Source of the DNA: Octopus sinensis
Taxonomy: Eukaryota
DNA: 64,000 nucleotides
Assembly: GCF_006345805.1 (NCBI RefSeq)
Contig: NC_043002.1
Span: 113,398,001 to 113,462,000 of the forward strand
Direction of reading: 5' to 3'
Shown here in pieces: positions 4,949-6,647 of the stretch (the first letter of the stretch is position 1; every line of letters starts with the position of its first letter). Made by a program: the position numbers.

Positions 4949-6607
4949 CCGGAGTAAACACAATAAATGTGAAACAAGGTGGAAAAAAGAGTACTCAATA
5001 CCAGTGGTAGAGTAATATGCTTTATTTAAAGCAGCAGAAAATTCAACAAAACCTGTTACTCTGAGTTTCACGTTGCCGTTCATCGGACAGTTTTTTCTAG
5101 CAAAAACTGTCCGATGAAACGGCCGCGAAACTCAGAGTAACAGGTTTTGTTGAATTTCTGCTGCTTTAAATAAAGTATATATATATAATATATATAATAT
5201 ATATATATGATATATATATATAAGTTTAACAATTAAGGATAATCTCTTATAAGGGATCTTAACAAGAAATTATCGGGTAGCTAGCGTGAAAACCTCATAA
5301 AAGAAAAGAATTCGAATAATTTTTTTTCTTTTGAACAAATTAATTATATCTATATTGTATAGAGAGGGCATTATTACCATAAATGCCTCACACTAGGAGG
5401 GACAAAGTCATTACTACCAAAATTATACTAATCATACCCAAATGCAGTTTTCAAAGCAAGACATTTAAAAAAATGAATTTAGTTCTGTATCACCGTGATT
5501 TCACATTCAACTTACGTCTAATGATCGTCAGCAGAACTGATTCTGAACACATCATAAATAAACTACCAACCTTACGTAGCGAAGACGAACAGACAACTGC
5601 TCACTCCGGCCAAGCACATGGAATGTTTATAAATCATTATCCGGTAAAGGCGGGCTTTTTACGAACTGCATGTCGGTAATGAAAAGTATTTCGGAATAAG
5701 TTTAACAATTAGGATAATCTCTTAATAAGGGATCTTAACAAGAAATTATCGGGTAGCTAGCGTGAAAACCTCATAAAAGAAAAGAATTCGAAAATATTTT
5801 TCTTTTGAACAAATTAATTATATCTATATTGTATAGAGGGCATTAGTACACATAAATGCCTCACACTAGGAGGGACAAAGTCATTACTACCAAAATTATA
5901 CTAATCATACCCAAATGCAGTTTTTCAAAGCAAGACATTTAAAAAAATGAATTTAGTTCTGTATCACCGTGATTTCACATTCAACTTACGTCTAATGATC
6001 GTCAGCAGAACTGATTCTGAACACATCATAATAAACTACCAACCTTACGTAGCGAAGACGAACAGACACTGCTCACTCCGGCCAAGCACATGGATGTTTA
6101 TAAATCATATATCCGGTAAATGGCGGGCTTTTTACGAACTGCATGTCGGTAATGAAAAGTATTTCGGAATAAGTTTAACCATTAAGGATAATCTCTTGCG
6201 TGTACAATCTTAACAAAAATTATCGGGTAGCTAGCGTGAAAACCTCATAAAAGAAAAGAATTCGAAAATAATTTTTTTCTTTTGAACAAATTAATTATAT
6301 CTATATTGTATAGAGGGCATTATTACACATAATGCCTCACACTAGGAGGGACAAAGTCATTACTACCAAATTATACTAATCATACCCAAATGCAGTTTTT
6401 CAAAGCAAGACATTTAAAAAAATGAATTTAGTTCTGTATCCGTGATTTCACATTCAACTACGTCTAATGATCGTCAGCAGAACTGATCTGAACACATCAT
6501 AAATAAACTACCAACCTTACGTAGCGAAGACGAACAGACAACTGCTCACTCTCCGGCCAAGCACATGGAATGTTTATAAATCATATATCCGGTAATCATA
6601 TATCCGG

Positions 6608-6647
<40 letters not shown>

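What the first reader, a model, noticed from the sequence alone, without database searches (positions are those of the whole stretch)
5221..6609. Tandem ~475-bp units each carrying a type I hammerhead: candidate non-LTR retrozyme / circular RNA locus
Seen: about 2.9 head-to-tail non-coding units in a (TA)n tract. Each has, on the minus strand, CUGACGA and GAAA cores, a 7-bp stem I, a GUAA-capped stem II and a quasi-palindromic stem III (AUCAC-G-GUGAU). Predicted cuts at 5488/5487, 5962/5961 and 6437/6436 would release monomers of 474 and 475 nt. Established: non-LTR retrozymes of corals, mussels and axolotl are tandem type I hammerhead repeats that are processed to circular RNAs and are thought to use PLE reverse transcriptase; palindromic stem III favours dimeric cleavage between neighbouring copies. 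Inference: the array was copied from a circular or multimeric RNA template, and it is a long-monomer retrozyme family in a probable cephalopod. It also has an unusual U-U at positions 10.1/11.1.
Basis: partly seen in the sequence, partly recalled or inferred. Interest (0 to 1): 0.88.

Follow-up and report, generated by a model that had tools for sequence, protein, structure and literature searches.

The report
Tandem hammerhead-ribozyme repeat (retrozyme-type)
This is a short tandem array of a 474-base non-coding repeat that carries a self-cleaving hammerhead ribozyme motif, a known kind of animal mobile element, here in a variant form that standard ribozyme models miss.

Summary
The array is real: 5220-6595, period 474, 2.9 copies. 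On the minus strand each unit carries a type I hammerhead with an intact catalytic core.

A motif of this quality occurred in 1 of 2,700 shuffled windows.

Corrections to the finding:
- Only 2 of 3 copies are intact. Copy 3 has lost bases in distal stem I, loop II and stem III.
- Rfam does not recognise the motif at any threshold tried.
- The U-U at 10.1/11.1 has a precedent in axolotl HHR_Amex2 (PMC7229834).
- 475 nt lies inside the published 51-972 bp range.
- The host could not be identified.

Folding the real two-copy transcript favours a double hammerhead. It lies 0.7 kcal/mol above the MFE, against 11.7 for two single motifs, and the inter-copy helix III has pair probability 0.97. The circular monomer is unusually stable (z -3.5 to -3.9).

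The nearby reverse transcriptase is LINE-type, not Penelope-like.

Verdict: a non-LTR retrozyme-type array, a new member of a known kind. Cleavage, circular RNA and the mobilising enzyme are inferred, not shown.

The parts
5221..6609 (-). Whole tandem array, 2.9 units of about 474 bp; ribozyme polarity is the minus strand
   Evidence: TRF row 5220-6595, period 474, 2.9 copies, 95% matches. blastn of unit 2 finds only the three array units in the window.
5221..5688 (-). Unit 1 (3'-most in ribozyme polarity), complete to the junction with (TA)n
   Evidence: Alignment A1. 96.6% identical to unit 2.
5689..6161 (-). Unit 2, complete
   Evidence: Alignment A1.
6162..6609 (-). Unit 3 (5'-most in ribozyme polarity). 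It lacks about 40-50 nt of the unit and ends in a 15-bp direct duplication
   Evidence: Alignment A1. 94.1% identical to unit 2. TRF row 6579-6619, period 15, 2.7 copies.
5475..5543 (-). Hammerhead copy 1, intact. It has distal stem I GAAU/AUUC, a 7-bp stem I, CUGACGA, an 8-position helix II (7 pairs plus one A-G) capped by GUAA with U-U at its base, GAAA, palindromic helix III and A17. The cut falls between 5488 and 5487
   Evidence: Sequence. Descriptor hit. Energy -11.8 against MFE -13.0 kcal/mol.
5949..6017 (-). Hammerhead copy 2, intact and identical to copy 1. The cut falls between 5962 and 5961
   Evidence: No difference from copy 1 across the motif.
6424..6488 (-). Hammerhead copy 3, damaged in this assembly. 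One base is lost from distal stem I, one from loop II (GUA) and two from helix III. The nominal cut falls between 6437 and 6436
   Evidence: It fails the as-found descriptor (stem III 3 bp; observed as-found count 2).
5488..5961 (-). 474-nt monomer bounded by the two intact ribozymes, the only unit this locus could release with both cuts made by intact motifs
   Evidence: Circular MFE -113.4 kcal/mol, z -3.45, 0 of 60 shuffles as stable.
5962..6436 (-). 475-nt monomer. Its release needs the damaged copy 3
   Evidence: Circular MFE -115.0 kcal/mol, z -3.93, 0 of 60 shuffles.
5176..5222 (.). (TA)n flank at the 3' junction (ribozyme polarity), the presumed target microsatellite
   Evidence: TRF; sequence.
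6608..6652 (.). (TA)n flank at the 5' junction (ribozyme polarity)
   Evidence: TRF; sequence.

Best explanation
The locus is a small array of a non-autonomous, non-coding retroelement of the animal 'non-LTR retrozyme' kind.

Proposed mechanism, with shown and inferred steps marked:
1. The array is transcribed on the minus strand into an oligomeric RNA (inferred).
2. Neighbouring hammerhead copies pair through their palindromic helix III segment into a nested double hammerhead. This places two intact catalytic cores at three-way junctions. The fold preference is computed; catalysis is inferred from the conserved core and from the axolotl and newt precedents.
3. [quoted passage not shown]
4. 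A host tRNA-type ligase circularises the monomer into a highly self-paired circle. In the circle helix III cannot form as a hairpin, so the circle is protected from re-cleavage. The stability and the lack of a helix III hairpin are computed; ligation is inferred from PMC7229834.
5. A reverse transcriptase supplied in trans copies a circular or uncleaved multimeric RNA into tandem cDNA at a nick in AT-rich DNA. The enzyme is most likely that of a Penelope-like element. This gave the 2.9 units inside a (TA)n tract (inferred; the junction positions are shown).
For: - Tandem array of 474-bp units.
- Complete type I core in 3 of 3 copies and complete helices in 2 of 3.
- A motif of this quality occurred in 1 of 2,700 shuffled windows.
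- Stem I is 7 bp plus a 4-bp distal extension across a 1x2 internal loop, with pair probabilities 0.81-0.99.
- In the real 566-nt two-copy transcript the double hammerhead costs 0.7 kcal/mol over the MFE (-140.7 against -141.4), while two single hammerheads cost 11.7 (-129.7). The inter-copy helix III has mean pair probability 0.966 and the hairpin form 0.0.
- The isolated helix III hairpin has no stability (0.0 kcal/mol), against -11.9 for the duplex.
- The circular monomers of ribozyme polarity have z -3.45 and -3.93 (0 of 60 shuffles each). They are more stable than the opposite polarity (-113/-115 against -88/-92 kcal/mol).
- G+C is 34%, within the published <45-50% (PMC7229834).
- There is no coding capacity.
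- Neither array end coincides with a cleavage site. The 3' end lies 267 nt past the cut at 5488 and the 5' end about 160-170 nt before the cut at 6437. So the template was not a processed linear monomer.
- The flanks are (TA)n. PLE endonucleases prefer (TA)n or AT-rich DNA, and a PLE reverse transcriptase initiates internally on unprocessed multi-copy RNA (PMC8557442; PMC11167929).
- A hammerhead with U-U at the base of helix II cleaves weakly alone (22% in 1 h) and much better as a dimer in axolotl (PMC7229834).
- Most retrozyme families (75%) have at most seven units (preprint).
Against: - No Rfam hammerhead model matches at any threshold.
- Neither reading of the base of helix II gives the G10.1-C11.1 pair. 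PMC4209133 calls this pair highly conserved, and from recall it forms a metal site with A9. So activity may be low or absent.
- The motif region alone is not thermodynamically exceptional (z +0.45). As a monomer the hammerhead fold is not the MFE, and helix III pairs have probability about 0.06.
- The third copy is damaged.
- The three copies are too alike to show covariation, and the ribozyme shows no sign of selection. There are 0 differences between copies 1 and 2 in the 69-nt motif where about 2 would be expected, and copy 3 has four lesions there.
- No other copy of the unit, no PLE-type minimal hammerhead and no PLE ORF was found in the 64 kb. Only 20 of 130 non-repetitive ORFs went to Pfam, with no GIY-YIG hit.
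- No target-site duplication can be read in a microsatellite.
- No expression data were available.
Confidence: 0.72

Rival explanations
1. The unit is not an independent element. It is a non-coding terminal part (pseudo-LTR or partial tandem) of an autonomous Penelope-like element, present here as an ORF-less fragment.
For: - PLEs insert as partial tandems into (TA)n and carry type I hammerheads in their pseudo-LTRs (PMC8557442; PMC4209133).
- This hammerhead shares PLE-type traits: a long helix II (7-8 positions), an unpaired base just after A9 in one reading, and a palindromic helix III.
- In Xenopus, 21 of the 22 transposable elements matched by retrozyme families are PLEs, and the matches lie in the PLE termini (preprint).
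Against: - No RT/GIY-YIG ORF adjoins the array.
- The nearest RT ORF (2603-4003) has RVT_1 at E 1.1e-23, its best PDB matches are R2 proteins, and its downstream 199 aa have no Pfam family.
- Three consecutive units without any ORF is the retrozyme arrangement.
- Stem I is longer (7+4 bp) than the 4-5 bp reported for PLE motifs, and helix III is present.
- Only the window could be searched.
Confidence: 0.12
2. It is a fossil. A satellite-like tandem duplication was made or expanded at the DNA level (unequal exchange or slippage), and its hammerhead is no longer active, or never was. No RNA circle is produced.
For: - U-U replaces G10.1-C11.1.
- Rfam does not recognise the motif.
- Copy 3 is damaged.
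- There is no sign of selection on the motif within the array.
- There is no second locus in the window.
- The array is embedded in slippage-prone (TA)n.
Against: - All core positions are intact in 3 of 3 copies, and all helices in 2 of 3.
- The chance rate of such a motif is about 3e-6 per unit.
- The double-hammerhead fold is nearly the MFE, and the circle is unusually stable.
- A U-U variant is active in axolotl.
- The units differ by only 2-4 substitutions, so the array is young.
Confidence: 0.12
3. It is an assembly artefact. The true locus holds one unit or a different number, and the copies and their indels come from mis-assembly or poor polishing of a repeat.
For: - The units differ by 11-16 indel events but only 2-4 substitutions per pair, the inverse of a usual mutation spectrum.
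- The neighbouring LINE ORF keeps one frame for 1,401 nt, so the indel excess is local to the repeat.
Against: - An assembler does not create 2.9 head-to-tail copies flanked by unique sequence unless the reads contain them.
- Each unit has private differences, including a replaced patch of about 10 nt in unit 3.
- Poor polishing would change the details (for example the state of copy 3), not the existence of the array.
Confidence: 0.03
4. It is a DNA copy of an exogenous or autonomously replicating viroid-like circular RNA, not of a genome-born retroelement.
For: - The size (474 nt), the hammerhead, the compact predicted fold and the permuted multimeric DNA form are also what a reverse-transcribed rolling-circle replicon would leave.
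Against: - A ribozyme is found in one polarity only. The descriptor finds nothing on the plus strand of the array, and Rfam finds nothing on either strand.
- Type I topology, low G+C and a dimer-dependent helix III are the hallmarks of animal genomic repeats (PMC7229834).
- No relative was found in the collections open here, though these do not cover RNA viromes.
Confidence: 0.01

Closest known systems
Axolotl non-LTR retrozyme Rtz_353 with HHR_Amex2 (Cervera and de la Pena 2020, PMC7229834; sections read)
   Same: - Type I hammerhead in head-to-tail non-coding repeats.
- A U-U mismatch at the base of helix II.
- A weak helix III, so that the motif is predicted (here) or shown (axolotl) to work better as a dimer between neighbouring copies.
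- A self-paired circular monomer.
   Different: - The unit is 474 bp rather than 350 bp.
- Helix III here is a 5+5 palindrome around one G, rather than two pairs capped by a tetraloop.
- Helix II has 8 positions rather than the short canonical one.
- The host is not an amphibian as far as I can judge, though it is unverified.
- Nothing here has been tested at the bench.
Mussel (Mytilus galloprovincialis) non-LTR retrozymes (PMC7229834, section read)
   Same: - Tandem repeats of similar size (350-390 bp) with type I hammerheads that lack most of the archetypal loop 1-loop 2 contacts.
- Low G+C.
- Co-existence with PLEs is proposed.
   Different: - Mussel motifs cleave as single ribozymes (kobs about 0.1 per min).
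- The motif here is predicted to need a partner copy.
- No sequence comparison was possible. The mussel sequences are in supplements, which were closed.
Minimal hammerheads of Penelope-like elements (Cervera and de la Pena 2014, PMC4209133; passages read)
   Same: - A long helix II (7-8 bp).
- An unpaired base following A9 in one reading.
- A palindromic helix III region and a dimeric mode of action.
- Association with tandem insertions in AT-rich targets.
   Different: - PLE motifs have a short stem I (4-5 bp), usually no helix III stem, a conserved G10.1-C11.1, and sit beside an RT/GIY-YIG ORF.
- Here stem I is 7+4 bp, helix III is present, 10.1/11.1 is U-U (or C-G with flanking unpaired U's), and no PLE ORF adjoins.
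Classic hammerhead 'satellites': newt satellite 2 (about 330 bp) and cave-cricket pDo500 (cited in PMC7229834 and PMC7761336)
   Same: - Tandem genomic repeats of a few hundred bp whose transcripts are cut by a type I hammerhead.
- Newt motifs act as double hammerheads.
   Different: - Those are long arrays with many copies, whereas this is a 2.9-unit array.
- The roughly 500-bp size of pDo500 is taken from its name and from recall, not from a call.
Rfam Hammerhead_1 (family name as used in PMC6962438)
   Same: - The same ribozyme class and topology.
- 235 such loci are annotated in the giant squid genome.
   Different: - This motif does not reach any reportable score against the Rfam library.

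Membership tests
Animal non-LTR retrozyme (PMC7229834) | Type I hammerhead with the conserved catalytic core (CUGANGA, GAAA, a non-G base at 17, A15.1-U16.1) | tested here: met
   The core is intact in 3 of 3 copies and all three helices in 2 of 3. The chance rate is 1 of 2,700 shuffled windows. Deviation: U-U at 10.1/11.1, with a precedent in HHR_Amex2.
Animal non-LTR retrozyme (PMC7229834) | Head-to-tail repeats of a few hundred bp, from dimers to large multimers | tested here: met
   2.9 units of 474 bp. The published ranges are 150-450 bp and 51-972 bp.
Animal non-LTR retrozyme (PMC7229834) | Low G+C (<45-50%) and no coding capacity or LTRs | tested here: met
   G+C is 34%. No conserved ORF and no Pfam family above threshold. 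The array is a plain tandem with no terminal repeats other than the units themselves. PBS and PPT motifs were not searched for.
Animal non-LTR retrozyme (PMC7229834) | Monomer predicted to form a stable, highly self-paired circular RNA | tested here: met
   Circular MFE -113.4 and -115.0 kcal/mol, 65-67% of bases paired, z -3.45 and -3.93, 0 of 60 shuffles each.
Animal non-LTR retrozyme (PMC7229834) | Self-cleavage of transcripts, and accumulation of linear and circular monomer RNA in tissues | not testable with these tools
   No bench work and no RNA data. The fold calculation favours a double hammerhead, but that is not catalysis.
Animal non-LTR retrozyme (PMC7229834) | Many dispersed copies in the genome, and co-existence with autonomous PLEs | tested here: inconclusive
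   Within the 64 kb there is no second locus, no PLE-type minimal hammerhead and no GIY-YIG hit in the 20 of 130 ORFs scanned. No eukaryotic genome collection was open, so the genome-wide question is untouched.
Rfam hammerhead families | Score at or above the family's gathering threshold | tested here: not met
   0 matches at gathering score. No hammerhead family at E<=10 on 1.6 kb or on the 68-nt motif.
PLE pseudo-LTR minimal hammerhead (PMC4209133) | Location in the repeats that flank an RT plus GIY-YIG ORF | tested here: not met
   The nearest RT (2603-4003, minus strand) is LINE-type: RVT_1 at 1.1e-23, best PDB hits R2 proteins, and no family in the downstream 199 aa. It lies 1.2 kb from the array.
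PLE pseudo-LTR minimal hammerhead (PMC4209133) | Long helix II (7-8 bp), short stem I (4-5 bp), an unpaired base between A9 and 10.1, G10.1-C11.1, and a palindromic 15.2-16.2 region or loop 3 | tested here: inconclusive
   Met: the long helix II, the palindromic helix III, and a U after A9 that can be read as unpaired. Not met: stem I is 7+4 bp, and there is no G10.1-C11.1.

The most novel reading that the evidence does not exclude
The motif represents a hammerhead architecture intermediate between the minimal ribozymes of Penelope-like elements and the canonical ribozymes of retrozymes. From the PLE side it has the long helix II, the unpaired U after A9 and the palindromic helix III. From the canonical side it has the long stem I with an internal loop. 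It belongs to a family that current Rfam models cannot see and that cleaves only as a double hammerhead. If the host is a cephalopod or another invertebrate with many such arrays, two things would follow. It would give an invertebrate link for the PLE-origin hypothesis, so far argued from Xenopus. It would also mean that hammerhead censuses based on Rfam undercount these elements.
Probability: 0.25. Interest if true: 0.5.

Novelty: new member of a known kind. Interest (0 to 1): 0.35.

Why it matters
If active, the locus adds a retrozyme family with a dimer-only hammerhead variant that standard covariance models miss. That is a practical warning for ribozyme annotation.

It is also a small data point for the idea that animal retrozymes derive from, and are moved by, Penelope-like elements. 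The relevant features are the PLE-like ribozyme traits, the (TA)n target, and array ends that do not coincide with the cleavage sites.

It does not open a new question. Tandem type I hammerhead repeats that yield circular RNAs are established in cnidarians, molluscs, insects, fish and amphibians. Type I hammerheads are already annotated in a cephalopod genome (235 in the giant squid, PMC6962438).

Tried and rejected
- **Rfam.** I searched at three scales and found no hammerhead. I do not read this as 'no ribozyme', because the core and helices are explicit and statistically improbable. It does bar filing the motif under the Rfam family.
- **Single-motif fold.** It is no better than shuffles. 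I dropped it as a criterion because the relevant species is the two-copy transcript.
- **Second descriptor hit, plus strand 26129-26205.** It has stem I 5 bp, a helix II closing a loop of about 46 nt, and helix III 2 bp. I rejected it as chance: 17 of 200 shuffles give at least one such hit.
- **Three further 'relaxed' hits.** These are 6477->6389, 6005->5914 and 5531->5441. They are alternative, weaker pairings of the same three cores, not extra ribozymes.
- **PLE-type minimal hammerhead scan.** It gave 0 hits and 0 of 100 shuffles. The descriptor is strict, so absence is weak evidence.
- **Pfam on ORFs.** 20 of 130 non-repetitive ORFs of 75 aa or more were scanned. There were two RVT_1 hits, one of them below its cut-off (27.4 against 29.6 bits at 30206-30736), and no GIY-YIG. 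The other 110 ORFs were not scanned.
- **Atlas search with the LINE C-terminal ORF.** Only unnamed clusters came back and there was no usable taxon, so the host stays unknown. ARAGORN found no tRNA.
- **Other collections.** The unit has no match in plasmids or phages, and the 58-nt motif has no match in prokaryote genomes. This was expected and only rules out contamination or a vector.
- **Literature searches.** 'retrozyme' with 'cephalopod' gave 2 papers, both the same PLE work. 'hammerhead ribozyme' with 'octopus' gave 5 papers, of which 4 were listed, and none of those is about octopus ribozymes. 'retrozyme' with 'mollusc' gave 6. One search was badly designed (5,733 papers, none of the 15 listed holds 'retrozyme') and shows nothing. 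So I found no description of cephalopod retrozymes in this library. Subscription journals and supplements are not covered.
- **Selection on the ribozyme within the array.** This is not demonstrable, because the copies are too similar.
- **Target-site duplication.** It cannot be read in (TA)n.
- **Unchecked because closed.** Genome-wide copy number, other arrays with permuted ends, PLE co-occurrence, raw reads and expression all stayed unchecked.
- **Supplements closed.** Supplementary figures of PMC7229834 (mussel and axolotl motifs, the mobilisation model) and the tables of the 2026 preprint could bear on the comparison.
- **Other operator points.** The window holds no N. I took no contig for human. 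I built no spliced model, so no joined step arose.
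Full report
**1. What is there**

Tandem Repeats Finder reports one long-period array in the window: 5220-6595, period 474, 2.9 copies, 95% matches, 3% indels. The three units align with 94% mean column identity. The array lies between (TA)n tracts at 5176-5222 and 6608-6652. 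The window has no N.

Read on the minus strand, units 1 and 2 carry the following, in order:
- a distal 4-bp helix (GAAU/AUUC) across a 1x2 internal loop;
- a 7-bp stem I (AGUUCUG/CAGAACU);
- CUGACGA;
- a helix II of eight positions (seven pairs and one A-G), capped by GUAA and opened at its base by U-U;
- GAAA;
- AUCAC-G-GUGAU;
- A17.

The predicted cuts fall after + coordinates 5488, 5962 and 6437. The monomers between them are 474 and 475 nt.

**2. Is it more than chance?**

I wrote an explicit type I descriptor. It requires the two core boxes, A15.1-U16.1, a non-G base at position 17 and three helices. I ran it on both strands.
- With 10.1/11.1 free, it finds the three array copies.
- At the quality actually seen (7/7/4 pairs), copies 1 and 2 pass. 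Only 1 of 200 and 0 of 2,500 dinucleotide-preserving shuffles of the window give any hit.
- That is about 4e-4 per window, or about 3e-6 per 474-nt unit.
- A further loose hit at 26129-26205 is within chance (17 of 200 shuffles).

**3. Results against the reading**
- Rfam does not see a hammerhead. There are 0 matches at gathering score in the whole window. None of the 5 weak matches on 5100-6700 is a hammerhead. There are 0 matches on the 68-nt motif alone at E<=10.
- The 81-nt region folds no better than shuffles (z +0.45).
- Copy 3 has lost one base from distal stem I, one from loop II and two from helix III. Only one monomer (5488-5961) is bounded by two intact ribozymes.
- The G10.1-C11.1 pair is absent. 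PMC4209133 calls this pair highly conserved.
- The copies are too alike for covariation or for a test of selection.

**4. How it probably works**

As a single motif:
- The hammerhead conformation is 1.2 kcal/mol above the MFE (-11.8 against -13.0).
- Stem I is firm (pair probabilities 0.81-0.99).
- Helix III is essentially never formed (about 0.06). Its isolated hairpin has no stability, whereas two copies of the segment form a duplex of -11.9 kcal/mol.

I then folded the real 566-nt transcript spanning copies 2 and 1:

| Regime | Energy (kcal/mol) |
|---|---|
| Unconstrained MFE | -141.4 |
| Two single hammerheads enforced | -129.7 |
| Nested double hammerhead enforced | -140.7 |

In the double hammerhead the 5' strand of stem I of one copy pairs with the 3' strand of the other, and helix III is extended between the copies. 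The inter-copy helix III has mean pair probability 0.966 in the ensemble.

The prediction is that oligomeric transcripts are processed through double hammerheads. It also predicts that the released monomer, or the circle, cannot rebuild helix III and is protected from re-cleavage.

This is the behaviour shown experimentally for newt and axolotl repeats (PMC7229834, section read). There the HHR_Amex2 motif also has a U-U mismatch at the base of helix II. It cleaves 22% in one hour as a monomer and much better in dimeric constructs.

The circular monomers of ribozyme polarity are markedly more stable than shuffles (z -3.45 and -3.93, 0 of 60 each). They are also more stable than the complementary polarity. 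This matches the 'stable and highly self-paired' circles described for retrozymes.

**5. How the array arose**

Neither end of the array coincides with a cleavage site. In ribozyme polarity the 3' end (5221) lies 267 nt beyond the cut at 5488. The 5' end lies about 160-170 nt before the cut at 6437 and carries a 15-bp direct duplication. A processed linear monomer cannot have been the template.

A circular or an uncleaved multimeric RNA fits, as does DNA-level duplication. The choice between circle and multimer is open.
- PMC7229834 proposes primed circles copied into tandem cDNA.
- PMC11167929 shows, for one PLE in vitro, cleavage of AT-rich DNA, internal initiation of reverse transcription and use of unprocessed multi-copy RNA. 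Ribozyme cleavage was not needed for insertion.
- PLE insertion bias for (TA)n is reported in PMC8557442.

No target-site duplication can be read in the microsatellite.

**6. An oddity inside the array**

Units differ by 2-4 substitutions but 11-16 indel events per pair, mostly single bases in short runs. The neighbouring 1,401-nt LINE frame has no frameshift, so the assembly is not generally indel-noisy. There are two candidate explanations, and only reads can tell them apart:
- Polishing failed in the repeat. In that case copy 3 may in truth be intact.
- The copies acquired slippage errors during templated synthesis.

**7. Surroundings**
- The RT ORF at 2603-4003 lies on the same strand, downstream of the array in ribozyme polarity. 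It matches RVT_1 at 1.1e-23, and its best solved relatives are R2 proteins (5 of 5 hits). Its C-terminal 199 aa have no GIY-YIG or other family. From its motifs I take it for a CR1-like LINE, a label that rests on recall. It is separated from the array by 1.2 kb of microsatellites and a 166-bp palindrome.
- The array is therefore not the pseudo-LTR of this ORF.
- No PLE ORF was found among the 20 of 130 ORFs scanned.
- No PLE-type minimal hammerhead is present.
- The unit has no other copy in the window.

**8. Comparison with what is known**

The locus meets every in-silico criterion of animal non-LTR retrozymes:
- type I core;
- head-to-tail units;
- low G+C (34%);
- no coding capacity;
- a stable circle.

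It fails none that I could test, apart from the Rfam score, which is not a defining feature of the retrozyme class.

- The unit length is ordinary. The published consensus range is 51-972 bp, and 75% of families have at most seven units (preprint).
- The U-U is not new.
- The ribozyme combines PLE-type traits (long helix II, a U after A9, palindromic helix III) with a long, canonical-type stem I.
- Type I hammerheads are already annotated in a cephalopod, with 235 in the giant squid.
- I found no paper describing cephalopod retrozymes.
- I could not establish that this window is from a cephalopod.

**9. Papers: what I saw**

| Paper | What I read |
|---|---|
| PMC7229834 | Passages and sections 13, 14, 15 in full |
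| Preprint 10.64898/2026.07.22.740005 | Abstract and part 1 of the results |
| PMC8557442, PMC6962438, PMC4209133, PMC7761336 | Passages only |
| PMC11167929 | Abstract and the whole main text |

No supplements were seen.

**10. Verdict**

This is a genuine, well-formed hammerhead tandem repeat of the retrozyme kind, a new member of a known kind. It is probably processed as a double hammerhead. Activity, the circle and the mobilising enzyme are unproven, and one of its three ribozymes is damaged in this assembly. Interest is moderate to low (0.35).

Noticed in passing
window 5015-5180; second partial copy at 30730-30832: A near-perfect hairpin palindrome of about 166 bp (arms 96-97% complementary) lies directly next to the array, separated from it only by (TA)n. 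A second partial copy at 93-97% identity sits elsewhere in the window, again between TA-rich microsatellites and abutting an RT fragment (30206-30736). It is unrelated in sequence to the hammerhead unit. It may be a foldback or MITE-like element that also targets, or seeds, (TA)n.
   Followed up: partly
window 2603-4003 (minus strand), with an (ATT)n tract at 2351-2478: A 5'-truncated LINE-type reverse transcriptase ORF: 465 codons in one frame with a single internal stop, RVT_1 at E 1.1e-23, and R2 proteins as best PDB hits. It is followed by a trinucleotide microsatellite. The 'CR1-like' label is from recall.
   Followed up: partly
window 3834-3989, with copies at 1127-1258, 20914-21056, 39623-39772, 49636-49788, 50147-50249, 55014-55045, 56080-56191 and 59631-59786: A dispersed repeat of about 150 bp (70-87% identity, 8 further copies in the 64 kb) abuts the 5' end of the LINE fragment. 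It looks SINE-like, but ARAGORN finds no tRNA-like gene in the window.
   Followed up: partly
window 5221-6609: The units of the array differ by 11-16 indel events but only 2-4 substitutions per pair, while the adjacent 1.4-kb LINE frame has no frameshift. This is either local polishing noise in the tandem repeat or slippage during templated synthesis.
   Followed up: partly
window 26129-26205 (plus strand): A loose hammerhead-like match: CTGATGA, GAAA, a palindromic ACGGCCGT at helix III, a 5-bp stem I, and a helix II closing a loop of about 46 nt. It is within the chance expectation (17 of 200 shuffles give such a hit).
   Followed up: partly
window 53494-54207, 12484-12780 and 60189-60428: ORF fragments whose translations look like mariner/Tc1-type transposase remnants by eye. 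Pfam found no family at E<=0.01, so this is an impression only.
   Followed up: partly
whole window: The window is extremely rich in microsatellites: 132 TRF rows, dominated by (TA)n, (CA)n, (ATA)n and (AGAT)n. G+C is 36.8%.
   Followed up: no
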